Of a stretch of DNA of 64,000 nucleotides, positions 8,354 through 60,148 are shown piece by piece (the first letter of the stretch is position 1; each line of letters begins with the position of its first letter). Where the stretch lies: assembly GCA_038040265.1 (NCBI GenBank), contig JBBPIP010000010.1, forward strand, positions 9,901-73,900, in the 5' to 3' direction. The translations under genes were made by a program, and so were the position numbers. Under the pieces are notes generated by a model. It made no database searches. It saw only the letters and a list, made by a program, of their open reading frames with translations, and had not been told where the DNA came from. The stretch comes from Chloroflexota bacterium (lineage in GTDB: Bacteria > Chloroflexota > Limnocylindria > P2-11E).

Positions 8354-9010
8354 TTAGGCGACAGCGGGCCTTCCTTCACGGGCCAGACCGCGCGCGGTGA
8401 GATAGGCGATCGCGCCGAAGAACAAGAGGTTGAGGACCGCCCCTATCAGGGGTGGTCCAACCGGGACATTCGAAAGGGCGAAGAGAAGGAAGAGGAGCCC
8501 GTACCAGCGCCCCGCCGGGGGCCTACGGATCGCGGCGACGACCGCGGCTGCCAAAGAACCGAGGAAGAACGGGATGATGCCGGGCATCAAGAGCGTGCTC
8601 GCCGCGCTGCTTACTTCGCTTGCGGCCGCCTCAAGGCCTGGCCGTAGCGACTCGGCTCCGCCCGCGTAGCTCCTGCTCAGGAAGAGCGTCGAAAACTGCG
8701 CTCCGTCGCCCGCGAGGTTTATGGCGGCTCCGGCAAAAAGCAGGACGACGACCACCGTCGCGGCCCAGCCCCGGCCGATCGCGCGCCAGATGGCTGGCAG
8801 CAGGGCGACGAGGACGATCCACATGGCGATCGCGGCGAAGAGCCACGCGATGAAGAGTGACTGGTTCGCCGCGAAGTACGTGAGACGCGCCCGCATGTCC
8901 TCGGGGTTGCCGCTCGCGTCGATGATCACGCGGAATGTATAGGCATGCACGGCGGCGAGAATCGCACCCGCAGAACCGAGGACCAGCACCCAGTTCCGAT
9001 CTGGCAGCAC
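8354..9010 (-). CDS. Hypothetical membrane protein (about 6 TM)
   Basis: 218 aa hydrophobic ORF, convergent with the previous gene. Composition is coding-like but I recognise no family. Confidence 0.45.
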   Translation of the reverse strand: MLPDRNWVLVLGSAGAILAAVHAYTFRVIIDASGNPEDMRARLTYFAANQSLFIAWLFAAIAMWIVLVALLPAIWRAIGRGWAATVVVVLLFAGAAINLAGDGAQFSTLFLSRSYAGGAESLRPGLEAAASEVSSAASTLLMPGIIPFFLGSLAAAVVAAIRRPPAGRWYGLLFLLFALSNVPVGPPLIGAVLNLLFFGAIAYLTARGLAREGRPAVA

Positions 9011-11362: not shown

Positions 11363-11805
11363 TTCTTCACGTTCGACTTTCCGTCGGGGAGTTCGTCGGC
11401 TCCGCCGAAGACCGCCTCGGCTTCGATCTCGACCAGGATGTGCGCGTCGATGAAGTCCACCTTCACGATCGTCATTGCGGGCCGGATGTCGCGGAACACC
11501 TCGCCGTGGACGACGGCCACATTCTGGATGTCGGCAGCGTTCCGCACGTAAACCCGCGTCATGATCACGTCGGCGAGCGTGCAGCCCAGGTCCTCCAGCG
11601 ACTCCTTCACCGTCCCGATCGCGGCGCGCATCTGCTCGACGACGTCATCAGACACCACGCTTCCGTCCTCGCCGATCCCGGCGGTTCCGGCGACGCGCAC
11701 CTTGTTGCCGTGCCGGACTGCCCGCGAGAACCCGAACTGGAACTCCCCGCGACTCCCGGTCGTGTACGTGAACCGCTTTGAGTTGTTCTTGTCGACTGTG
11801 GGCAT
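11359..11805 (-). CDS. RidA/YjgF-family reactive-intermediate deaminase
   Basis: 148 aa chorismate-mutase-like fold (TRVYVRNAADIQNV...MTIVKVDFIDAHILVEIEAEAV). Embedded between the isocitrate-dehydrogenase-family gene and mdh. Confidence 0.85.
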   Translation of the reverse strand: MPTVDKNNSKRFTYTTGSRGEFQFGFSRAVRHGNKVRVAGTAGIGEDGSVVSDDVVEQMRAAIGTVKESLEDLGCTLADVIMTRVYVRNAADIQNVAVVHGEVFRDIRPAMTIVKVDFIDAHILVEIEAEAVFGGADELPDGKSNVKK

Positions 11806-12890
11806 CAGTTGCGCATCCTTCTGATCACCGCGTCGGCGAATTCCTTTGTTCCGACCGCGGATGGATCGTCGCGGTCCGCTTTGAGGTCATACGTGACTTC
11901 CTTGCCCTCGGCTACGACCGAAGCGATAGCCTTCTCGAGCCGGTCGCCGGCTTCGCGCTCACCTATGTGGCGAAGCATGAGAGCCCCCGCAAGCATTAAC
12001 GCCATCGGGTTCACTTTGTTGAGTCCCGCGTACTTCGGCGCGGATCCGTGGATCGCCTCGAACATGGCGATGCCGCCCTCACCGATGTTCGCGCCCGGCG
12101 CGACCCCGAGCCCACCGACGAGACCGGCGACCAGGTCGCTCACGATGTCGCCGTAGAGGTTGGGAAGTACGAGGACGTCGTACAGGTCGGGCTTCACGAC
12201 GAGCTGCATGCACATGTTGTCGACGATGCGGTCCTCGAACTCGATCTCGGGGTAGTCGTTCGCGACCTCTCGCGCGACGCGGAGGAAGAGCCCGTCGGCG
12301 TATTTCATGATGTTCGCCTTGTGTACGGCCGTGACTTTCTTGCGGCCGTTGTCCCGCGCGTAGTCGAAGGCGAACTTCACGATGCGCCGCGAACCGAAGT
12401 CGCTGATCGCTTTGATCGCGAGCGCCGAGTGCTCCCGGATCTTCATCTTCGAGACGCGCTCGATGACCTCCTGGACCTCGCGCTCCTCGGGGGAGTCGAC
12501 GTCGAACTCGATCCCCGCGTAGAGGTCCTCGATGTTCTCGCGCACGACGACCAGGTCGACGTCGCCGCGCGGCGCGGGAACGCCGGGATAGGTCTTCGCG
12601 GGCCGCAGGTTCGCGTAGAGGTCGAACTCCCTGCGGAGCGCGACGTTCACGGAGCGAAAGCCCGTGCCCAGCTCGGTCGTGAGCGGGCCCTTGAGCGCGA
12701 TGCGGTTGCGGCGGACGGACTCGATCGCGTCCTTCGGGAACGGGGTGCCGTGCTTTGCCATCGCCGGCGTGCCGATGTCGTGCACGTCCCACTGGATCTT
12801 CACACCGGTAGCCTCGATTGCACGGCGGGTGGCCTCGACGATCTCCGGGCCCGTGCCGTCGCCCGGGATCAGCGTGATTCTGTGGGTCAG
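11805..12890 (-). CDS. Isocitrate / homoisocitrate / isopropylmalate dehydrogenase-family enzyme, most likely NAD-dependent IDH/HICDH; proposed CTG start
   Basis: Family motifs: ITLIPGDGTGPEI, NLRPAKTYPG, NLYGDIVSDLVAGLVGGLG. Homology begins at ...THRITLIPGDG. No ATG/GTG/TTG precedes that region, but a CTG at 12888-12890 lies 7 nt downstream of AAGGGGAGGG. The track ORF's 80-aa upstream extension (to 13133) is Cys/Arg-rich and not family-like. Confidence 0.75.
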   Translation of the reverse strand: MTHRITLIPGDGTGPEIVEATRRAIEATGVKIQWDVHDIGTPAMAKHGTPFPKDAIESVRRNRIALKGPLTTELGTGFRSVNVALRREFDLYANLRPAKTYPGVPAPRGDVDLVVVRENIEDLYAGIEFDVDSPEEREVQEVIERVSKMKIREHSALAIKAISDFGSRRIVKFAFDYARDNGRKKVTAVHKANIMKYADGLFLRVAREVANDYPEIEFEDRIVDNMCMQLVVKPDLYDVLVLPNLYGDIVSDLVAGLVGGLGVAPGANIGEGGIAMFEAIHGSAPKYAGLNKVNPMALMLAGALMLRHIGEREAGDRLEKAIASVVAEGKEVTYDLKADRDDPSAVGTKEFADAVIRRMRN

Positions 12891-13017
12891 TGAAACGCCC
12901 TCCCCTTGGCGATTACGACGCTGGCATCGTACTTCGCCATTCCCCAGCCCGCACGGCTCGGTCGTGGTCTGTCTCGAAAGTGCCGCCTCGATGCGGTCGC
13001 ACGCGCTGATACCTGAA

Positions 13018-13032
13018 GTCGCAATTTGCGAC
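13018..13032. promoter_or_regulatory. Perfect 7-1-7 palindrome GTCGCAAtTTGCGAC in the divergent icd/NMO intergenic region (candidate operator)
   Basis: Both arms are exact reverse complements. It sits between the two divergently transcribed genes. Confidence 0.3.
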
Positions 13033-13098
13033 CTCAAGTAGCAGGGCTGCTCGCGCAGAGCGTGAATCGCGACTACCGTTCCGGCGTGGGGAGCGCCG

Positions 13099-14073
13099 GT
13101 GATCAAGACACGACTAACTGAACTGCTCGGCATCCGTCATCCGATCGTTCTCGGCGGCATGTCGCGCGCGACCGCGGCGGACGTGGTCGCTGCGGTGAGC
13201 AATGCCGGTGGCCTCGGGACTCTGGGCATCTCGTCGATGACGCCGGAGGACATCCGCGCGAGCTGCGAACGCATCCGTTCGCTCACGAGCGCCCCCTTCG
13301 GATTGAACGCGCTGCTCTTTCTGGTATCGCCGGAGCAGCTCGACGCGACCTTCGCCTGCCGCCCGCGCGTGATCGCGACGGCGTGGCGGCGTCCCGAGCA
13401 GGACCTGGGCGCGGTCACAAAGCGCGCTCACGAGATCGGCGCCCTGCACATGCATCAGGCCGACACGCTCGACGAGGCGAAGCGCGCCGCCGAGGCCGGC
13501 GCGGATGTCGTCGTGGCGCAGGGGACCGAGGGCGGGGGACACGTCGGTGTCATGGCGACACTGCCGCTCGCGCGGATGGTCATTCGCGCGCTTCCGGACA
13601 TTCCGGTCCTGGTCGCGGGTGGCATCGCGGACGGTGCCGGGATCGCGGCGGCGCTCGTCCTCGGTGGCGACGGTGTTCTGCTCGGAACGCGATTCCTGGC
13701 GACCGATGAGGCGCCGTTCCCCGACGGGTACAAGCGCGCGATCGTCGAGAGCGACGGGCACGACACGCTTATCAGCGAGATTCCGGACATCGCGGCTGGG
13801 CAGGTCTGGCCTGGCGCGTACGCCCGCGTTCTCCGCAATGCGTTCATCGAAGAGTGGATCGGCCGCGAGGGCGAGCTTCGACGACATCTCGCCGAGGTAC
13901 GGCAGTCATTGCAGGCCGCGCGCGCTGCCGGCGACGCGAAGCGCGGCACCCTGCTGCTGGGTCAGGACGCCGGACTCATCGATTCAATCGAGCCCGCAGG
14001 CGCGCTCGTCGAGCGTCTCGCGGCGGACGCCGAGGCCGCGCTCCGCGAACGCGGGCGTCTGGTGAGTCGCTAG
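13099..14073 (+). CDS. Nitronate monooxygenase (NMO / 2-nitropropane dioxygenase) family flavoprotein
   Basis: 324 aa, GTG start. Motifs: HPIVLGGMSRATAADVVAAVSNAGGLGTLG, VVAQGTEGGGHVG. Confidence 0.8.
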   Translation: MIKTRLTELLGIRHPIVLGGMSRATAADVVAAVSNAGGLGTLGISSMTPEDIRASCERIRSLTSAPFGLNALLFLVSPEQLDATFACRPRVIATAWRRPEQDLGAVTKRAHEIGALHMHQADTLDEAKRAAEAGADVVVAQGTEGGGHVGVMATLPLARMVIRALPDIPVLVAGGIADGAGIAAALVLGGDGVLLGTRFLATDEAPFPDGYKRAIVESDGHDTLISEIPDIAAGQVWPGAYARVLRNAFIEEWIGREGELRRHLAEVRQSLQAARAAGDAKRGTLLLGQDAGLIDSIEPAGALVERLAADAEAALRERGRLVSR

Positions 14074-35094: not shown

Positions 35095-35498
35095 CGACGC
35101 ATTGGACCGCGCTGGGCGGCGCGCTCCGCACAGGAGCCGCCGCTGCGGCTTGGGGCAATGCCGGCGAGACCGAGATCTTCGCCGTCCATGACGACGGCCA
35201 GCTCTGGGATCGCTACTGGGACGGAAAAACTTGGCACGCGTGGGAGTCACTCGGCGGCGCATTCACGGGACAGCCCGGAGCCGCCGCGCGCGACGCCGAC
35301 CGCATAGACGTATTCGCGATCGGCACTGACGGCGTGCTTCGCCATCGCTGGTGGGACGGAAAGCGCTGGGTCGAGTGGCGTGACGTCGAAGGCGCGCCCC
35401 GTGGCGGCCGTGCGGTGGCGTGTTCTTGGAGCGGCGTGCGGCTCGACGTGTTCATCTGGGGCGCGGACGGCGGTCTTCATTACGCGGATCTCGCGTGA
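35064..35498 (+). CDS. RSL/AAL-type (fucose-lectin-like) beta-propeller repeat protein, 3 blades
   Basis: Three ~45-aa repeats: ...EIFAVHDDGQLWDRYWDGKTWHAWESLGGAF / ...IDVFAIGTDGVLRHRWWDGKRWVEWRDVEG / ...LDVFIWGADGGLHY. These match Ralstonia RSL blades (ERCWDGKGWYTGAF / EWCWDGNGWTKGAY). The start is uncertain because the track ORF overlaps the binding-protein gene by about 31 nt. Confidence 0.55.
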   Translation: MAQEAGPHQVTTHWTALGGALRTGAAAAAWGNAGETEIFAVHDDGQLWDRYWDGKTWHAWESLGGAFTGQPGAAARDADRIDVFAIGTDGVLRHRWWDGKRWVEWRDVEGAPRGGRAVACSWSGVRLDVFIWGADGGLHYADLA

Positions 35499-36859
35499 CC
35501 GAACGGTTCGACTTCGTCGTCATCGGCGCCGGCGCGTCCGGCGAAGCAGCCGCGAGCCATGCGCGCGCTCGGGGCGCGACGGTGGCTCTTGTCGAGCGCG
35601 ACCTCTTCGGCGGAACGTGCGCGTTCTGGGGATGCATGCCGTCGAAGACGCTCCTCCACGCGGCCGAGATCCGCGCCTCCGGCGGCGACTATCCATGGGA
35701 GAAGGCCTCGGCGCGACGCGACTACATGATCGTCCGCGAGGGCCGCGATTATCCCGATGACTCGGGACACATCAAGGGGTACAAGGCCGCGGGGACTGTC
35801 CCCGTACGCGGTTCGGCGAAGATCGCCGGATCCGGCAAGGTGGTCGTGCGTACGGGTGACGGCGCGCGCGAGCTCGAGGCGCGCGACATCGTGATCGCGG
35901 TCGGGTCCGTGGCGAAGGTGCCGAAGATCGAGGGTCTCGCGGAGGCCGGCTTCTGGACGAACAAAGAGGGAACCAGCCTGCGCGAGCTTCCGAAGAGCAT
36001 CGCGATCCTCGGCGCCGGCCCGTCCGGCACCGAGCTCGCGCAGGTCTACGCGCGGTTCGGCGTGCGCACGACCCTCGTCAGCCCACGGCAGGTGAACCCG
36101 ACCGACCACCCACGAAGCTCGGCGCTGCTCGCAAAGGCGCTCCGCGCATCGGGTGTCGATGTGCGCGAGAACGCGCGTGCCCAGCGCGTCCGGCCGCACG
36201 CCGGAAAGGGCGGAGACCACGTCGTCGAGCTCGCCGACGGCTCGACCGTCGAGGCCGCGGTGATCGAGCTCAACGTCGGCCGCACGGCCGCGCCCGCGCT
36301 CTCCACGTTGGGTCTCGAAGCGGTCGGCATCGCCTACGACGGTGGCGACATCCTGGAGGTCGACGACAGGCTTCGCGCCGCCGATCACGTCTACGCGATC
36401 GGCGACTGCATCGGTCACGAGCTCTCCACGCACCTCGGGTACTACGAGGGCGAGACCGCGGTGAAGATCGCGCTCGGCGACAACATCCGCGCCGACTTGA
36501 GCGCGACGCCACGCGCCGTGTACACGGACCCGGAAACGGCCGCGGTCGGGATGCTGCTGGAACAGGCCAAAGAGCGCGGGATCGACGCGTACGAGGAGAC
36601 CGCCAACCTCGCGACGAGCGCGAAGGGCTACGTGAGCGAATCGGAGGGGCACGTCTCGATCGTGATCGACCGCAAGAACAAGGTCCTCGTCGGCGCGTTC
36701 ATCGGCGGCCCCGCGGCATCGGAGGCGATCCACGAGGCGGTGCTCGCGATCAAGCTCAAAACGCCGATCTCGCTCCTCGCGCAGACGATCCACGCGTTCC
36801 CCACGGTGACGCGCGTCATGGGCGGGCTCTTCGCGAAGGCCGACCTGGCGCTGCGGTGA
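35495..36859 (+). CDS. Class I pyridine-nucleotide-disulfide flavoprotein oxidoreductase (dihydrolipoamide dehydrogenase / mercuric-reductase-like)
   Basis: GTG at 35495 overlaps the previous stop (GTGA). Motifs: FDFVVIGAGASGEAAA, redox-active GGTCAFWGCMPSK, and a C-terminal dimerisation domain (HAFPTVTRVMG). Confidence 0.8.
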   Translation: MTERFDFVVIGAGASGEAAASHARARGATVALVERDLFGGTCAFWGCMPSKTLLHAAEIRASGGDYPWEKASARRDYMIVREGRDYPDDSGHIKGYKAAGTVPVRGSAKIAGSGKVVVRTGDGARELEARDIVIAVGSVAKVPKIEGLAEAGFWTNKEGTSLRELPKSIAILGAGPSGTELAQVYARFGVRTTLVSPRQVNPTDHPRSSALLAKALRASGVDVRENARAQRVRPHAGKGGDHVVELADGSTVEAAVIELNVGRTAAPALSTLGLEAVGIAYDGGDILEVDDRLRAADHVYAIGDCIGHELSTHLGYYEGETAVKIALGDNIRADLSATPRAVYTDPETAAVGMLLEQAKERGIDAYEETANLATSAKGYVSESEGHVSIVIDRKNKVLVGAFIGGPAASEAIHEAVLAIKLKTPISLLAQTIHAFPTVTRVMGGLFAKADLALR

Positions 36860-39023: not shown

Positions 39024-39032
39024 TTTCACGCG

Positions 39033-40115
39033 GTGAGTTTTGTCCGGGTCGCCGCGCTGATCGGGATTCTCGCGATTAGCTGCGCGCCGACCGCTTCGGC
39101 TCCGACCCCCGCCGCGTCGACCGCGACATCTCCGAGCGGCTCGCCCACCGCGTCTCCCGCACCGAAGCGGATCCAATCTGCAGAGACTCCATTCCCCGCG
39201 GCGCCGGGCGCCTTTGTCATATTTCAGCTCCCAAGCGAGACGCGACTCCGTGGGATCTCGTTCGGTGGCGAGGTGAACGGTCGGCTCGATGGTGGCGGGG
39301 CCGGCCAGACCTCAGAAAGCGCGGGCTGGTCGCAATCGCTACAGGGCACGCCCTATCTCGTCGGCACGACGGTGTACGACCGCGACGGCAAATCGCTGGG
39401 GACCATTCCGTGGGCCGCGAAGGAATCGAAGACATGGTCGAGCGACGGACGGTTCCTCTGCGCGGCGGTTCCGGGGACTGCCACGGCAGGAGCGCAGATG
39501 CGCCTGGAGATGGCTCTGATCGGCCAAACCGCGAAGGTGGTCGCGACCGGCTACACGACGTACAGCGACAACGCGGTGTACCGGGTGCTCGCGTGCGACC
39601 AGGGCACGGACCGCGCGATTGTTGCGTCGTTCGGACAGGGGACCACCGCCTCGAAGCTGTGGGTGTTCCGTCTCTCGAGCGGCGCCGTGGTTCGGTCGGT
39701 GGACTACGCCGGCGTGGGCGGATGGGTCGCAGCCAGCGCGGATGGGTCGATGCTTGCCGAGTCCGTCCCGCCGGTCGGTGCCGCGACTAATTGGAAGACG
39801 ACGATCCGTTCCGCGGACGACGGCGCGCAGCTCGCGACGATCGATGACCTCGTGGCTCGCGGCTTCTCGGGCGACAAATCGCTCGTTGTCGGCAACACAC
39901 CGGGTGCCGCAGCGGTCGTCGATTGGAAGACCGGGCGCAAGGTCTGGACCGCGAGCGGACCGTACGGGGGCTTTCTCGCCGAGCCCGCGGGGCGGCGCTT
40001 CGCGGTCGGCGTTGGGTTCGTCGGGGGTTCAGACCAGCGCGACGTGTATCTCGTTGCGGCGGACGGGTCCGCTCCTCTTCTGCCCGAGCGCGTGCGGGTC
40101 TCGCTCCGTTATTAG
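39033..40115 (+). CDS. Hypothetical secreted lipoprotein (beta-propeller-like)
   Basis: Signal peptide plus lipobox (LAISCAP) and a Pro/Thr/Ser-rich linker, followed by a beta-rich domain. Confidence 0.55.
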   Translation: MSFVRVAALIGILAISCAPTASAPTPAASTATSPSGSPTASPAPKRIQSAETPFPAAPGAFVIFQLPSETRLRGISFGGEVNGRLDGGGAGQTSESAGWSQSLQGTPYLVGTTVYDRDGKSLGTIPWAAKESKTWSSDGRFLCAAVPGTATAGAQMRLEMALIGQTAKVVATGYTTYSDNAVYRVLACDQGTDRAIVASFGQGTTASKLWVFRLSSGAVVRSVDYAGVGGWVAASADGSMLAESVPPVGAATNWKTTIRSADDGAQLATIDDLVARGFSGDKSLVVGNTPGAAAVVDWKTGRKVWTASGPYGGFLAEPAGRRFAVGVGFVGGSDQRDVYLVAADGSAPLLPERVRVSLRY

Positions 40116-40567: not shown

Positions 40568-42058
40568 CTAGGCGAGGAGGCCCTCGAGCGCGGCGACGAC
40601 CGCGCGCTCGTGATCGCGCGTGCGGAAGTCGTGAAGTGGATGCGGCGGCAGATCGTGCTCGGCACTGACGCCGCCGCGTCGCGTGTACAGGACCGGGTAG
40701 ATGTCTCCGTCGGTGTTCTCTTCAAGGGTCGCGGCGACCGCGTCGGCCGGGCCCGAGTCCAGAAAGCTCTGGAGCGGGAGAATCCCGTCGTCGACGATCC
40801 CACGCTTTTCGTCGCGGACGAGCACGCGCGCGAGGTAGGACTTCTGGTGCCAGAGCTCGGGCGCGTTGGTCACCTCGTGCAAGAGATAGGACACGAGCTC
40901 GGCGCGAGGCACGACCGGCCGTTCCGGATCTATGCCGAAGTGCTTCTTCGCTACCTGGCGCGCGAGGACCCGTCCGTTGTAGCGGTGTCCGTTCACGCCG
41001 CCGGAGTTGCTCGGCATGCCGTGCTTGCGGAGGCCGGGCGATGCCTGATGGATCGTTCCGCCGAAGTACACACCGGGTAGCGACGCGCTCTCCCAGAACG
41101 GAGTCTGCGCGGGCAGCTTGTTGCGTCCCACCGTCGCGACTCCGAGCTTCGGCAGGTCGTTGATCGGGCTCGTGAACCCGGTGGCGGCGATGACATCGTC
41201 GACTTCGAAGACGAGCTCGGCGGCGGTCTCGGCCCTGCGCGTGTGCACGAGGAAGGTCTTGCCCGTTCGCTCGATGCGCTCGATCGACGCGTCGAGCACG
41301 AGCACGCCACCAGCGAGGACGTGATCCTCGTACGGCTGAACGTATCGCGCGCGGACGCCGACGAGGGAGCGCGTGGTGATCGAGAGCTTCGTCGGCGAGG
41401 GTGAGGCGAGGACGATCTGCTTCGCCCACTGGAGGAATCCGGTCGCGAGCTCGAAGCCGGAGTTCTCCTTGCCGACGATGAAGACCCGCCGTCCCGCGTA
41501 GGTCTCCGCCGGTCGGGTCTGCGCGTAGTGCGCCGCGTCCTCGATACCCGGGATTTGCGGTCGCCATGGCTCAGCCACACCAACGGCGAAGATCGGCACC
41601 TGGCAGCGGTACTCGCCGTCGCTCGTCTCGAGCACCCACCGCTCGCCGTCGCGGCGGGTCCCTGTCCACCGGCATCCGTATCGAACCGCGACGTGGGTGC
41701 GGTCCGCGAACGCGACGAGGTTGCGCTCCATCTCCGGACGAGACGGGTAGTAGGAGGTGCCGTCCATCATCGAGCACATCAGCGCGCGACACTCCTTCTC
41801 TTCGGGAAGGAGGCTGTTCCAGTCGTAGCGCTCGTACTCGCGGGTGCCCTGCGCGAACGGTGCGTACGGCTTTGTCCACGAGAGAAGCCGCTGGAAGAAG
41901 GGCCACTTTCGAAACATGCCGCCGGCGTTCTCGTCCGCAGAGATCATGGCGTGCTTCACGCCGAGGCGCGAGAGCGAGTAGCTGATCTGAAGGCCGCCAG
42001 GTCCGCTGCCGACGAGGACGACGGGATAGTCGCCGGGCGGGTGCGGTCGGTCCGTCAA
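40568..42058 (-). CDS. FAD/NAD(P)-binding oxidoreductase, flavin-monooxygenase (CzcO/FMO)-like
   Basis: Two Rossmann dinucleotide motifs: VVLVGSGPGGLQISYSL and RVFIVGKENSGFELATGF. 496 aa. 4-nt overlap with the upstream cNMP-binding gene. Confidence 0.7.
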   Translation of the reverse strand: MTDRPHPPGDYPVVLVGSGPGGLQISYSLSRLGVKHAMISADENAGGMFRKWPFFQRLLSWTKPYAPFAQGTREYERYDWNSLLPEEKECRALMCSMMDGTSYYPSRPEMERNLVAFADRTHVAVRYGCRWTGTRRDGERWVLETSDGEYRCQVPIFAVGVAEPWRPQIPGIEDAAHYAQTRPAETYAGRRVFIVGKENSGFELATGFLQWAKQIVLASPSPTKLSITTRSLVGVRARYVQPYEDHVLAGGVLVLDASIERIERTGKTFLVHTRRAETAAELVFEVDDVIAATGFTSPINDLPKLGVATVGRNKLPAQTPFWESASLPGVYFGGTIHQASPGLRKHGMPSNSGGVNGHRYNGRVLARQVAKKHFGIDPERPVVPRAELVSYLLHEVTNAPELWHQKSYLARVLVRDEKRGIVDDGILPLQSFLDSGPADAVAATLEENTDGDIYPVLYTRRGGVSAEHDLPPHPLHDFRTRDHERAVVAALEGLLA

Positions 42059-48362: not shown

Positions 48363-49506
48363 TCTCCGAGGTCATCGTTAGCGGAGCGCTGGCACGCGAC
48401 AGGACCGCAGCCACGATCGCAGCGACGGGCAAGGCGAGCGCCGCGGTCGCGATGAATGGCAGGAGTGGATCCGCCTCGTAGAGGAAGCCGGCGATCGTGC
48501 CTCCCGCTCCAAAACCGAGCGCGAACGCGACCTGGTACGTCGCGTAACCCTGCGCCGCGCGCGCGGGCGGGATGATCCGCTCCACCGCGGAGGCGACCAC
48601 GGGGTTTGCGGCCTGCGTGGCGCCGAGGAGGAGCGCGGCCGCGCCGACCAGAGGTTCCGCGCGTCCGGAGAGCGCCATGAGCACGCTCGCCGCGGTCATC
48701 AGCGCCGCCGCGCCGAGTAGGGCCGGCACCGCGCCGATCGCGTCCGCGAGCCGGCCGGCCGCCACCGCAAGACCCGCCGCGCCGACGGAGACCAGCCCGA
48801 GATAGATGCCGAGCCGATCGAGCGGGATCGCGGCGACCTCGCGCAGATAGACCGGCAGGAACGCGAGCGACACGATCGAAAGCCCCGCCGCGAACGGCGT
48901 GATCGCAAGGAGGACCCAGAACGTCCGCGGCGGCCGAAAGGGGCCGCGCTCGACGTGCGGCGGCACGGCTCGAAGGCCGAAGCTGAGGGCGCCCGAACCA
49001 GCGAGCAGCGCCGCCGCGATCGCGATCGCGGCGCGGAACCCGACCGATGCCGCGATCAGCCCGGCGAACGGCGCGCCGATGATGTTGCCGGCGAAGTAGG
49101 CGCCGAAGACGATCCCGAGCGCGCGGCCGAGGTCCGCGCGCGGCGTCGTGGACGTGACGTAGGCGATGATCAGCGGGACTCCGGCCGTGCCGGACCAGTA
49201 CAGCGCGGAGCCGACGAACGCTCCGTGCCAGTCCGTCAGCGGCACGAACGACGCGACGCCGACGGCGGCGACGAGCGCGGCCGCGATCATCACCGGCTTG
49301 CGGCCGATCCGGTCGGCGAGGTAGCCGGCCGGCAGGAAGCACAGGACCGCGACGAGGTTCCCTGCGCCGAAGACGATTCCGATCTCCTGCGGGCTCGCGC
49401 CGAGGTCCCGCAGGTAGAGGGGCCATACCGCTGACAGAAGCCCGAACCCGGACCCGAAGAGGATCTGCGCTCCGGTGAGGATCCAGATGTCGCGCGAGAG
49501 CTTCAG
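48355..49506 (-). CDS. MFS transporter (12 TM); proposed CTG start
   Basis: The track ORF (GTG at 49293) begins inside MFS motif A (PAGYLADRIGRKPVMIAAA), between TM2 and TM3. The frame stays open upstream, encoding TM1-TM2 (LKLSRDIWILTGAQILFGSGFGLLSAVWPLYL), with no ATG/GTG/TTG. A CTG at 49504-49506 lies 5 nt after GAAGGGA and overlaps the upstream gene's TGA (CTGA). Confidence 0.7.
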   Translation of the reverse strand: MKLSRDIWILTGAQILFGSGFGLLSAVWPLYLRDLGASPQEIGIVFGAGNLVAVLCFLPAGYLADRIGRKPVMIAAALVAAVGVASFVPLTDWHGAFVGSALYWSGTAGVPLIIAYVTSTTPRADLGRALGIVFGAYFAGNIIGAPFAGLIAASVGFRAAIAIAAALLAGSGALSFGLRAVPPHVERGPFRPPRTFWVLLAITPFAAGLSIVSLAFLPVYLREVAAIPLDRLGIYLGLVSVGAAGLAVAAGRLADAIGAVPALLGAAALMTAASVLMALSGRAEPLVGAAALLLGATQAANPVVASAVERIIPPARAAQGYATYQVAFALGFGAGGTIAGFLYEADPLLPFIATAALALPVAAIVAAVLSRASAPLTMTSEIS

Positions 49507-50717: not shown

Positions 50718-51367
50718 CGGGTCTGGTGTCCCGCGATGAGCGCGAGGATCACGCGGTCGAGCGCGCGATCCGCCTCCTCGAACAGGAGCGCGGCCTGATC
50801 CGATCCGAGCGAGCGCCGTCGTGCGACGTTCGCGATCTCCGACATGAAGCGCGCGCGGAAGAAGAGGAAGACCTGCGTGCCCTCGCCGAGCGAGAGCCCG
50901 TGGCGGCGAGCCTCGACCCCGTACTCGCGGCCGAGCACCTCGGCCTGCGCGATGAGCTGATCGCGCCCGACCGCGCGTGTCGTATCGAGGTGCCCGAGCA
51001 GCAGGTCGCTCATCCGCACGCCGCGCTCGCGGAACCAGCGGAGCGAGTCCTCGTCGAAGCGCGCATACCAGTCCTGCGTCGCGAGGTCGACGCGGACGCG
51101 CTTGAGGAACTCTGCGGAGACGCGATCGGGAGCTTCACCGAGCGCGGAGAGCGACTGACGGCGCGCCTGCCGCGGGCGGGGAAGCATCGCGTCGATCGAG
51201 GCGCGCATGAAACGGCGATGCCCGCCGGGCGTGGTGAAGACCTCGATCTTTCCGGAATCGGCCCAGCGGCGAAGCGTGTCGGGATCCACGCCGAGGATCC
51301 GGCTCGCCTCCCCCAGCGTTAGCCAGTCACCGCGCTCGAGCGTCGTCGCCTTGGAGATACCGCAAAT
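50714..51367 (-). CDS. MerR/excisionase-type HTH transcriptional regulator with C-terminal effector domain; start uncertain
   Basis: The complete HTH (DWLTLGEASRILGVDPDTLRRWADSGKIEVFTTPGGHRRF) begins upstream of the first canonical start (GTG at 51289). The frame is open back to a TAG at 51368-51370 with only ATT/ATC/CTG-type candidate starts. Confidence 0.55.
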   Translation of the reverse strand: MCGISKATTLERGDWLTLGEASRILGVDPDTLRRWADSGKIEVFTTPGGHRRFMRASIDAMLPRPRQARRQSLSALGEAPDRVSAEFLKRVRVDLATQDWYARFDEDSLRWFRERGVRMSDLLLGHLDTTRAVGRDQLIAQAEVLGREYGVEARRHGLSLGEGTQVFLFFRARFMSEIANVARRRSLGSDQAALLFEEADRALDRVILALIAGHQTR

Positions 51368-51397
51368 CTAGGCGAAGCTGGGTCGCGCTGTCTCGGC

Positions 51398-59409: not shown

Positions 59410-59515
59410 TCCGCTGATTCTGCGTCCAGGGGTAGGGGCTGAGACCTCGCCCACACGGGGGTGTATTGAAATCTGACTAGCGTCGTTCTCAATCCAGATG
59501 CCCCGGAGCCCGTAG

Positions 59516-60148
59516 ATCGTCCAGGACGCCGGCATCACCGGTGAGACGGCAAGAGGCACGCAGCAGCGCGGTATCGACGCTGCGCTCGTCAAAGCCGCCC
59601 AGGCCGGAGATGCCTCAGCGTTCGGCCAGCTCTACGAACGCTATCGCGACCCGGTCTTTCGGTACTGCTTGTCGAGGACCGGCGCGAAACACGAGGCGGA
59701 GGACCTGGTAGCCGACGTATTCATCCGCGCGATGCAAGCGCTCGACAGGTACGAGGACCGTGGCCTTCCGTTCGTCGCGTTCCTCTTCCGGATCGCGCGC
59801 AACGCCGCGATCGACAAGAGCCGGCGCACCCGACCGGACATGTCGATCGACGAGCTCGTGAATCATCCCGAGTCGGGTCAGAACGTCGAGGCCGAGGCCA
59901 TTCGCTCGATCGAGCGGGACGCCCTCTACGGTGCGATGTCAAAGCTGAAGCCCGACTATCGCGAAGTCCTCCTCCTGCGTTTTGTCGAGGGATATGGCGC
60001 GGCGGATGTGGGGCGCATGACCGGTCGCAGCGAAGGTGCGGTGCGCACGCTGCAGCACCGTGCGCTCGATCGCCTTCGCAAGGAGCTCGAGCGGATGGGC
60101 GACCTTTCTCTCTTTGAACGCTGGTCGGGCGCGGACGCGGCCGAATGA
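59516..60148 (+). CDS. ECF (sigma-70 family group IV) sigma factor; start uncertain (non-canonical)
   Basis: Region 2/4 motifs: IDAALVKAAQAGDASAFGQLYERYRDPVFRYCLSRTG..AEDLVADVFIRAMQAL...REVLLLRFVEGYGAADVGRMTGRSEGAVRTLQHRA. The first canonical start (TTG at 59669) would delete region 2.1. The frame is open back to a TAG at 59513 with no ATG/GTG/TTG. Confidence 0.7.
   Translation: MVQDAGITGETARGTQQRGIDAALVKAAQAGDASAFGQLYERYRDPVFRYCLSRTGAKHEAEDLVADVFIRAMQALDRYEDRGLPFVAFLFRIARNAAIDKSRRTRPDMSIDELVNHPESGQNVEAEAIRSIERDALYGAMSKLKPDYREVLLLRFVEGYGAADVGRMTGRSEGAVRTLQHRALDRLRKELERMGDLSLFERWSGADAAE

What the first reader, a model, noticed from the sequence alone, without database searches (positions are those of the whole stretch)
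12868..12907. Isocitrate-dehydrogenase-family gene appears to start at CTG with a strong SD; no canonical start before the conserved N-terminus
Family homology begins at T-H-R-I-T-L-I-P-G-D-G. Upstream of it in frame there is no ATG/GTG/TTG for 80 codons, and that stretch is Cys/Arg/Ser-rich and non-homologous. A CTG two codons before the homology (CTG ACC CAC AGA ATC ACG CTG ATC, i.e. L/M-T-H-R-I-T-L-I) is 7 nt downstream of AAGGGGAGGG. This is one of at least four genes in the window showing the same problem; the others are the MFS gene at 49506, the MerR-like gene at 51367 and the ECF sigma gene at 59516.
Basis: seen in the sequence. Interest (0 to 1): 0.55.

Follow-up and report, generated by a model that had tools for sequence, protein, structure and literature searches.

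The report
CTG start codon of isocitrate dehydrogenase
A soil bacterium of the uncultured class Limnocylindria almost certainly starts translating its isocitrate dehydrogenase gene at CTG instead of ATG/GTG/TTG, and several neighbouring genes also use rare start codons, which standard gene callers get wrong.

Summary
The gene lies on the minus strand (stop at 11805). CTG at 12890-12888 sits 7 nt after AAGGGGAGGG, at the exact codon where more than 80 orthologues from other phyla have ATG/GTG/TTG.

One detail is wrong. In-frame TTGs exist 49 and 72 codons upstream, and an ATG at 81.

Twelve independent Limnocylindria assemblies carry CTG at this codon, in two separate clades. In three of them an in-frame stop lies 6-27 codons upstream with no canonical start in between. 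Downstream of the CTG there are no indels, and variation falls on third codon positions. Upstream, the frame is not conserved.

NCBI already annotates one orthologue (P0004) from this CTG.

- The MFS gene starts at a CTG that overlaps the upstream TGA stop (CTGA) in 6 of 7 lineages.
- The ECF sigma gene starts at ATC 59516.
- The MerR-like gene probably starts at a leaderless ATC.

Relatives add three more CTGA starts: aconitase, a flavoprotein and a HADH-like gene.

The kind is known, for example Deinococcus rpsL (CTG) and dnaA (ATC). The apparent percent-level frequency in this lineage looks unusual but is untested experimentally. Interest is moderate.

The parts
12888..12890 (-). Proposed CTG initiation codon of the IDH-family gene
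   Evidence: This is the exact column where orthologues carry ATG/GTG/TTG. CTG is present in 12 Limnocylindria loci plus L173. The codon-usage (LLR) coding onset falls 4 codons away.
12898..12907 (-). Shine-Dalgarno-like AAGGGGAGGG, 7 nt upstream of the CTG
   Evidence: A GGGGAG(G/A) motif is kept 6-10 nt before the NTG in every CTG locus, while the flanking sequence diverges.
11805..12890 (-). IDH-family coding sequence, 361 aa including the initiator, stop at 11807-11805
   Evidence: Pfam PF00180 E=1.6e-103. The best solved relative is the NAD-dependent IDH 6lky_A. Codons 2-20 show 2/1/16 variable columns at codon positions 1/2/3 and no gaps.
12926..12931 (-). Conserved TACGAT, inferred -10 promoter element, 35 nt upstream of the CTG
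   Evidence: It is invariant or nearly invariant in 17 aligned loci, while its distance to the NTG varies from 29 to 45 nt. Its function is inferred only; the strict sigma-70 consensus scan found nothing.
12891..13098 (-). Non-coding divergent intergenic region and 5' leader, including the spurious in-frame TTG at 13037
   Evidence: Of the 100 upstream alignment columns, 61 are gapped, and the frame is not preserved. There is no Rfam match.
12801..12803 (-). First downstream canonical start (GTG, codon +29), used by gene callers to produce truncated 332-aa proteins
   Evidence: Starting here would delete the conserved ITLIPGDGTGPE segment.
49504..49506 (-). CTG start of the MFS transporter gene, overlapping the TGA stop of the upstream M20 peptidase gene (CTGA)
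   Evidence: Pfam MFS_1 begins 60 residues before the first canonical start. The CTGA overlap is kept in 6 of 7 lineages even though the junction shifts.
51356..51358 (-). Probable ATC start of the MerR/HTH_17-like regulator, 6 nt after the conserved TAGATT (51370-51365)
   Evidence: An ATC/ATT/ATA codon is in frame in 6 lineages. L168 has a 1-nt indel just upstream of it. The spacer to the HTH is always a whole number of codons. The HTH starts before the first canonical GTG.
59516..59518 (+). Probable ATC start of the ECF sigma factor gene, directly after an in-frame TAG, with GGAG 7 nt upstream
   Evidence: NCBI protein P0249 starts at the equivalent ATC in L171. L172 has GTG one codon further on. 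Region 2 begins before the first canonical TTG.

Best explanation
The IDH-family gene is the first gene of an IDH-RidA-malate dehydrogenase operon. It is translated from the CUG codon at 12890.

The 30S subunit is positioned by pairing of the strong Shine-Dalgarno sequence (AAGGGGAGGG, 7-nt spacer) with the 16S rRNA 3' end. Initiator fMet-tRNA then decodes CUG with a first-position mismatch. The product is 361 aa and begins (M)THRITLIPGDG.

Shown: translation begins at this codon and not elsewhere, and the codon is stably CTG in two clades of Limnocylindria.

Inferred: the SD-directed mechanism, insertion of Met, and the promoter assignment.

The case is not isolated. The same lineage uses CTG and ATC/ATT/ATA at other genes, which suggests unusually tolerant start-codon selection.
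For: 1. Position. Orthologues from Ktedonobacteria, Chloroflexia, Omnitrophota, Planctomycetota and others carry ATG/GTG/TTG at the same codon or one codon away. Close relatives carry GTG (L002, L007, L092, L168, L169), TTG (L033, L085, L091) or ATG (L170) there.

2. CTG is found in the window plus 11 other loci and L173, each preceded by GGGGAG 6-10 nt upstream.

3. L001, L006 and L009 have in-frame stops at -27, -16 and -6 codons and no canonical start before the CTG. The next canonical start is at +29 or +40.

4. Downstream of the NTG there are no gaps, and variable columns number 2/1/16 at codon positions 1/2/3. Upstream, 61 of 100 columns are gapped and spacing is not frame-preserving.

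5. The start-column codon is always NTG, whereas the Leu codon six codons later varies between CTG, CTC and TTG.

6. The codon-usage (LLR) coding onset lies 4 codons from the CTG, with no canonical start within -20 to +12 codons.

7. The N-termini of solved NAD-IDHs are collinear with the CTG-started protein.

8. NCBI annotates the orthologue from this CTG.

9. An NJ tree shows two separate all-CTG clades.
Against: There is no experimental evidence: no N-terminal peptide, no ribosome profiling and no reporter assay.

In E. coli, near-cognate codons initiate at about 1% of AUG or less. ATT, at about 0.3%, is cited from Hecht et al. 2017 in PMC10666635. This seems low for a central TCA-cycle enzyme unless this lineage initiates on CUG more efficiently.

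The components that would explain such tolerance (IF3, initiator tRNA, 16S rRNA) could not be retrieved.

The promoter assignment rests on conservation only.
Confidence: 0.9

Rival explanations
1. Translation starts at an upstream canonical codon (TTG 13037, TTG 13106 or ATG 13133) and yields a protein with a 49-81-residue N-terminal extension.
For: These codons exist in frame in this window. Gene callers pick such starts in many database entries.
Against: The extension has no homology and is not conserved in sequence, length or frame among relatives. Relatives have in-frame stops 6-27 codons upstream of the CTG. ATG 13133 lies inside the divergent gene that starts at 13099. The codon-usage score is negative upstream of the CTG.
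Confidence: 0.03
2. Translation starts at the next canonical codon downstream (GTG 12803) and gives a 332-aa protein.
For: Many database entries are called this way, for example P0054 and P0056-P0065.
Against: The skipped 29 codons are under strong amino-acid-level constraint, with third-position variation only and no indels. They encode the family's conserved N-terminal strand and GDGxGPE loop, which start at residue 2 in solved structures and at profile position 2 of PF00180.
Confidence: 0.03
3. The CTG is used by a ribosome that has just terminated on a short upstream ORF ending at the overlapping TGA (CTGA). This would be termination-reinitiation rather than de novo SD-led initiation.
For: A +1-frame uORF with a canonical start ends at the CTGA in the window (17 codons) and in 8 of the 11 other CTG loci. 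CTGA overlaps are clearly used at other genes in this lineage.
Against: The uORF's start, length and sequence are not conserved. L001 and L094 have none. L089 has CTG GCC, so there is no overlapping stop. Loci with canonical starts have similar uORFs. The conserved TACGAT, if it is the -10 element, would place several of the uORF ATGs outside the transcript.
Confidence: 0.05
4. Sequencing or assembly error, or a decaying pseudogene.
For: It is a single non-canonical base in a metagenome-derived sequence.
Against: The same base is present in 12 or more independent assemblies from different samples. The ORF is intact and under purifying selection.
Confidence: 0.01

Closest known systems
Deinococcus-Thermus rpsL (CTG), Deide_03051 (CTG) and dnaA (ATC) starts, shown by N-terminal proteomics in Deinococcus deserti (PMC2830850)
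   Same: These are conserved housekeeping genes that start at CTG or ATC. The codon is conserved across related genomes. Automatic callers gave heterogeneous, wrong N-termini. The cases were recognised by aligning orthologous loci.
   Different: Those cases have peptide evidence and this one does not. That study reports only four non-canonical starts (dnaA, rpsL, Deide_03051, infC) in the D. deserti genome. Here, four genes in 64 kb need such starts and further cases occur in relatives. The phylum also differs (Chloroflexota).
infC (ATT/ATA) and pcnB (ATT) non-canonical starts in E. coli and others, as summarised in PMC2830850
   Same: A near-cognate start codon is maintained by selection.
   Different: For infC and pcnB the weak codon is part of a specific regulatory mechanism (PMC2830850), IF3 autoregulation in the case of infC (own knowledge). 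There is no sign of such a circuit for IDH. The CTG interchanges with GTG/TTG/ATG among close relatives.
Translational coupling through -4 nt overlaps (ATGA/GTGA) by termination-reinitiation (PMC10666635)
   Same: This applies to the MFS gene and the three extra cases found in relatives. The start codon overlaps the upstream TGA by 4 nt. This is the dominant junction type in this window: 15 canonical NTGA junctions were counted.
   Different: The overlapping start is CTG, giving CTGA. That form is not among the overlaps described in that paper: a search of its text for CTGA found no occurrence.
Type I homodimeric NAD-dependent isocitrate dehydrogenases (PDB 6lky, 6ltf/6m3s)
   Same: Collinear over the full length from residue 2-3, E=1e-110. 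The genomic context is TCA-cycle: RidA, malate dehydrogenase, and aconitase in relatives.
   Different: Scores fall below NCBIfam equivalog cut-offs (392 bits against 510). There is an insertion of roughly 16-20 residues around residues 137-155 relative to 6lky. Cofactor and substrate were not determined.

Membership tests
Bacterial genes initiated at a near-cognate (non-ATG/GTG/TTG) codon | No canonical start is compatible with the conserved N-terminus | tested here: met
   The nearest upstream canonical start is 49 codons away in non-conserved sequence. Relatives have in-frame stops with no canonical start before the CTG. The next downstream start removes 29 conserved residues.
Bacterial genes initiated at a near-cognate (non-ATG/GTG/TTG) codon | The near-cognate codon sits at the orthologous start position and is conserved | tested here: met
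   NTG is in one alignment column in all 17 aligned loci. CTG occurs in two clades, 12 loci plus L173. Outgroups have ATG/GTG/TTG.
Bacterial genes initiated at a near-cognate (non-ATG/GTG/TTG) codon | A ribosome-binding signal at functional spacing | tested here: met
   AAGGGGAGGG with a 7-nt spacer. GGGGAG is conserved 6-10 nt upstream in every CTG locus.
Bacterial genes initiated at a near-cognate (non-ATG/GTG/TTG) codon | Direct evidence of the protein N-terminus or of an initiating ribosome | not testable with these tools
   Requires N-terminal proteomics or metaproteomics, or ribosome profiling.
Isocitrate/isopropylmalate dehydrogenase family (PF00180) | A full-length match to the family profile above the curated threshold | tested here: met
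   347 bits against a cut-off of 27, profile positions 2-348 of 348.
NAD-dependent isocitrate dehydrogenase (specific enzyme) | Reaches an equivalog model cut-off, or cofactor and substrate determinants are verified | tested here: not met
   The best NCBIfam IDH equivalog scores 392 bits against a 510 cut-off. The closest solved protein is a putative NAD-IDH. Specificity residues were not examined, so 'IDH-family' is the safe label.
Termination-reinitiation coupling via 4-nt overlap (for the MFS gene) | The start codon overlaps the upstream stop by 4 nt, and the overlap is conserved when the junction moves | tested here: met
   CTGA occurs in the window, L081, L167, L085, L168 and L170, with M20 lengths of 403-406 aa. 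L169 has TAG followed in frame by ATC. Actual coupling was not tested.
Leaderless mRNA (for the MerR-like gene) | The transcription start coincides with the start codon | tested here: inconclusive
   Conserved TAGATT lies 6-7 nt before the in-frame ATC/ATT/ATA in 6 lineages. TANNNT ends 6-11 nt upstream of 7 of 46 canonical starts, against 0.3 expected. There are no transcript data.

The most novel reading that the evidence does not exclude
Limnocylindria as a lineage has relaxed start-codon discrimination. Near-cognate codons (CTG, ATC, ATT, ATA) would serve as genuine starts at percent-level frequency, in all three initiation modes:
- SD-led: IDH and the ECF sigma gene.
- Reinitiation at a 4-nt overlap: CTGA at the MFS, aconitase, flavoprotein and HADH-like genes.
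- Leaderless: the MerR-like gene.

These codons also interchange freely with GTG/TTG/ATG over short evolutionary distances. This implies an altered proofreading component (IF3, the initiator tRNA anticodon stem, or 16S rRNA). It also means systematic mis-annotation of this abundant soil and freshwater class by callers that allow only ATG/GTG/TTG.
Probability: 0.5. Interest if true: 0.7.

Novelty: new member of a known kind. Interest (0 to 1): 0.5.

Why it matters
Taken alone, a CTG-initiated IDH gene is a well-supported new example of a known rarity, and NCBI's pipeline already annotates an orthologue that way.

The more useful point is the pattern around it. Four of about 50 genes in one 64-kb window need a non-canonical start. 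Two independent CTG clades exist for one gene. CTGA overlaps are conserved. Three more ATG/TTG-to-CTG replacements appear in the few relatives examined. For comparison, a survey of 36 groups of closely related genomes found only 2 switches to CUG among 61,358 ancestral AUG starts (PMC5622118).

If the pattern is general, it has two consequences:
- It offers a natural system for asking how bacterial start-codon fidelity can be loosened.
- Most public protein predictions for this widespread uncultured class carry wrong N-termini for a few percent of genes. For this IDH, database entries range from 318 to 459 aa for one 361-aa protein.

Tried and rejected
1. The uORF and termination-reinitiation explanation for the IDH CTG. 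The uORFs are not conserved and are absent in L001, L094 and L089.

2. A known RNA element in the leader. Rfam gave no match at E<=1.

3. A consensus sigma-70 promoter or terminator in the intergenic region. None was found, so the -10 assignment of TACGAT rests on conservation alone.

4. An initiator tRNA in the window or in 32 related loci, to inspect the three G-C pairs. None was present; the only tRNA was a tRNA-Thr in L086.

5. Additional non-canonical candidates in the window flagged by the codon-usage onset screen. Both have plausible canonical starts: ORF 19323-18400 has TTG or GTG before GGVILAAG, and ORF 39024-40115 has a GTG followed by a lipoprotein signal peptide. The suspected case at 35384-36859 has GTG 35495 immediately before the FAD-binding motif.

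6. The same screen on 171 ORFs in related loci found no convincing new gene families beyond orthologues of the four. The three extra cases came only from the NTGA junction census.

7. Literature searches for Limnocylindria or Chloroflexi combined with start-codon terms returned nothing.

8. ATC 59573 ('MDAALVKAAQ') as the ECF sigma start. It was set aside in favour of ATC 59516, because relatives start at ATC or GTG within one codon of 59516 and distant homologues have 25-30 residues before DAALV.

Full report
**What is at the coordinates.** The gene is on the minus strand. Read 5'->3' on that strand, the sequence is AAGGGGAGGG (12907-12898), a 7-nt spacer CGTTTCA, then CTG ACC CAC AGA ATC ACG CTG ATC CCG GGC GAC from 12890. 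The frame runs to a stop at 11807-11805. The longest ORF in this frame (442 aa) starts at ATG 13133, and in-frame TTGs lie at 13106 and 13037. ATG 13133 lies inside the divergently transcribed NMO/FabK-like gene, which starts at GTG 13099.

**Where the protein should begin.** Pfam Iso_dh matches residues 86-436 of the long ORF, from profile position 2. Full-length NCBIfam IDH models align from model position 4-5 to residue 3 of the CTG-started protein. The closest solved proteins begin M-HKITLIPGDG (6lky_A, NAD-dependent IDH, E=1e-110) and M-TQTITVIRGDG (6ltf_A). They are collinear with (M)THRITLIPGDG.

**Homologous proteins.** The closest database proteins come from Candidatus Limnocylindria (Chloroflexota) MAGs and soil metagenomes. 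Those at 89% identity or more all read L-T-H-T/R-I-T-L. Depending on the gene caller, they carry unrelated N-terminal extensions of 5-98 residues or are truncated to 332 aa at the next GTG. Several NCBI entries are exactly 361 aa and start M-T-H. Relatives at 82-84% identity start M or V at that very residue: MTHRITL, VTHRITL, MAHRITL, MSHTITL. P0020 (NCBI, 361 aa) and P0021 (ENA, 408 aa) are identical from the second residue of P0020 (T-H-T-I-T-L) onwards, with M in one where the other has L.

**DNA of relatives.**
- Scans of species-representative genomes and of metagenome contigs gave about 100 orthologous loci.
- At the aligned codon, CTG occurs in the window, L001, L003, L006, L009, L087, L088, L089, L093, L094, L095 and L097, and also in L173.
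- Other Limnocylindria-type loci have GTG (L002, L007, L092, L168, L169), TTG (L033, L085, L091) or ATG (L170). L004, L005, L008 and L096 have ATG or GTG one codon upstream.
- All outgroups below 70% identity (Ktedonobacteria, Chloroflexia, Omnitrophota, Planctomycetota, Nitrospirota and others) have ATG/GTG/TTG at that codon or one codon away. None has CTG.
- In L001, L006 and L009 an in-frame stop lies 27, 16 and 6 codons upstream, with no canonical start before the CTG. The next canonical start is at +29 or +40.
- L173 is the NCBI record that encodes the 361-aa protein P0004, and its first codon is CTG. NCBI's pipeline has therefore already accepted this start for the orthologue.

**Where coding begins.**
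- In a 17-locus alignment, the 19 codons after the NTG contain no gaps. They have 2, 1 and 16 variable columns at codon positions 1, 2 and 3.
- Of the 100 columns before the NTG, 61 are gapped. Only three islands are conserved: TGTTCTATG (absent or diverged in the window's own clade), GTACGAT and GGGGAG.
- The distance from TACGAT to the NTG ranges from 29 to 45 nt without preserving frame. The SD-to-NTG spacer is 6-12 nt (6-10 nt in the CTG loci).
- The start-column codon is always NTG, whereas the Leu codon six codons later varies between CTG, CTC and TTG.
- A codon-usage log-likelihood model trained on the window places the coding onset 4 codons from the CTG, with no canonical start within -20 to +12 codons.
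- GGGGAGG occurs only 9 times in the 128 kb of both strands. Two other copies sit just upstream of canonical gene starts.

**Evolution of the codon.** An NJ tree of the proteins shows two separate all-CTG clades:
- Clade A: window, L173, L087, L088, L001, L009, L089.
- Clade B: L093, L095, L006, L094, L003. It is sister to a TTG locus and nested among GTG, TTG and ATG loci.

This means either at least two origins or long retention with reversions. For comparison, a survey of 36 groups of closely related genomes found 2 switches to CUG among 61,358 ancestral AUG starts, 1 among 5,080 GUG starts and 1 among 2,468 UUG starts (PMC5622118).

**Mechanism.** The simplest reading is ordinary SD-directed initiation at CUG by fMet-tRNA. 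I tested the alternative that the CUG is a reinitiation site after a uORF ending at the overlapping TGA. Such uORFs with canonical starts exist in 9 of 12 CTG loci. However, they are unconserved, are absent in L001 and L094, cannot exist in L089 (CTG GCC), and occur equally in loci with canonical starts. No Rfam family matches the leader. The consensus promoter scan found nothing, so calling TACGAT a -10 element is inference from conservation.

Pfam domain starts lie upstream of the first canonical start in all three, and the codon-usage onset falls 0-3 codons from the proposed start in each.

- *MFS transporter.* The CTG at 49506 overlaps the TGA stop of the upstream M20 peptidase gene (AGCTGAAG). 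The CTGA overlap is present in the window, L081, L167, L085/L086, L168 and L170. This holds although the M20 protein is 403, 404 or 406 aa and the MFS N-terminus shortens or lengthens accordingly. L169 instead has a TAG stop followed in frame by ATC. This looks like termination-reinitiation at a CTG. Four-nucleotide overlaps are the commonest junction in this window, but published descriptions list ATGA and GTGA (PMC10666635).

- *ECF sigma factor.* NCBI protein P0249 (211 aa, 'MIPDAGITGET') is encoded from ATC directly after an in-frame TAG in L171, equivalent to window 59516. L172 has GTG one codon further on. Homologues at 65% identity have 25-30 residues before the DAALV motif. GGAG lies 7 nt upstream. 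A five-codon ORF (ATG CCC CGG AGC CCG TAG) abuts the ATC in four lineages, and its three substitutions are all at third positions.

- *MerR/HTH_17-like gene.* The motif TTCGCCTAGATTTNCGG(T/C)AT(C/T/A) is conserved in six lineages. Its last three bases (ATC, ATT or ATA) are always in frame with the gene. The spacer to the HTH is 8-10 whole codons. L168 has a 1-nt indel just upstream. TANNNT ends 6-11 nt upstream of 7 of 46 canonical starts in the window, against 0.3 expected. Leaderless transcripts therefore appear common, and this gene fits that architecture with a non-AUG start. No transcript data are available.

**How frequent.**
- Pfam scans of stop-to-stop translations of about 50 window genes, together with the onset screen, flagged only these four genes. 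Two further flags and one suspected case resolved to canonical starts.
- My best-guess canonical starts are GTG 23, ATG 18 and TTG 5. Only about 30% have an SD-like motif.
- The onset screen on 171 ORFs in related loci added no new gene families.
- A census of NTGA junctions found three more CTG starts where orthologues are canonical:
  - aconitase in L006 (ATGA in L094, L095, L168, L169 and L170);
  - the Pyr_redox_3 flavoprotein in L081 (TTGA in the window at 42058);
  - a HADH-like gene in L007 that begins (M)KRVAIVGAG.
- The sample is small and was partly chosen around the flagged genes. "A few percent" is therefore an estimate, not a measurement.

**Comparison with what is known.** CTG, ATT, ATC and ATA are recognised rare bacterial initiators. 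Examples include infC and pcnB in E. coli. In Deinococcus, N-terminal proteomics showed dnaA starting at ATC and rpsL at a CTG conserved across Deinococcus-Thermus. As here, callers gave heterogeneous N-termini for those genes (PMC2830850). The IDH case is a new, well-supported member of that kind, without peptide evidence. I found no paper linking Limnocylindria or Chloroflexi to unusual start codons.

**Verdict.** The item itself is a new member of a known kind and is already reflected in NCBI annotation. The surrounding pattern raises a testable hypothesis of lineage-wide relaxed start-codon selection. I rate that hypothesis at about even odds.

Noticed in passing
window 49503-49506 (minus strand): The MFS transporter gene starts at a CTG that overlaps the TGA stop of the upstream M20 peptidase gene (CTGA). 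The overlap is kept in 6 of 7 lineages even though the junction shifts by 1-3 codons. L169 has TAG followed directly by ATC instead.
   Followed up: yes
window 51356-51370 (minus strand): The MerR/HTH_17-like regulator has no canonical start before its HTH. A conserved TAGATT lies 6-7 nt before an in-frame ATC/ATT/ATA in six lineages, which suggests a leaderless mRNA with a non-AUG start.
   Followed up: partly
window 59498-59518 (plus strand): The ECF sigma gene probably starts at ATC 59516. A conserved five-codon ORF (ATG CCC CGG AGC CCG TAG, MPRSP*) abuts it. All three substitutions in that ORF across four lineages fall at third codon positions. The ORF also contains the GGAG that could serve as the SD.
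   Followed up: partly
L006:4360-4362, L081:20804-20806 (window orthologue TTG at 42058-42056, minus strand), L007:5500-5502: Three further CTGA-overlap starts occur in relatives where orthologues have ATGA or TTGA: aconitase, a Pyr_redox_3 flavoprotein, and a HADH-like gene beginning (M)KRVAIVGAG.
   Followed up: partly
window, upstream of starts at 9010, 30008, 31689, 31766, 39033, 55745 and 57859: TANNNT hexamers end 6-11 nt before 7 of 46 canonical start codons, against about 0.3 expected. Only about 30% of starts have an SD-like motif. Leaderless or very short-leader mRNAs therefore seem common in this organism.
   Followed up: partly
whole window (46 canonical gene starts): Start-codon usage appears to be GTG 23, ATG 18 and TTG 5, so ATG is a minority. 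The starts were chosen by me from the codon-usage onset and nearby codons, so the counts are approximate.
   Followed up: no
L168:18162-19838: The aconitase gene downstream of IDH-RidA-MDH in this relative is called as 1415 aa with a Pfam Intein_splicing hit between two aconitase segments. This suggests an intein inside aconitase.
   Followed up: no
window 11805-12890 (minus strand), protein residues about 137-155: The IDH-family protein has an insertion of roughly 16-20 residues (SPEEREVQEVIERVSKMKIRE) relative to the closest solved NAD-IDH (6lky). It scores below all NCBIfam IDH equivalog cut-offs.
   Followed up: no
public protein databases (homologues P0001-P0120 and P0241-P0360): The database holds the same orthologue at widely different lengths: IDH 318-459 aa, ECF sigma 138-238 aa, and MFS 325-352 aa in called genes. 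The cause is that the callers allow only ATG/GTG/TTG.
   Followed up: yes
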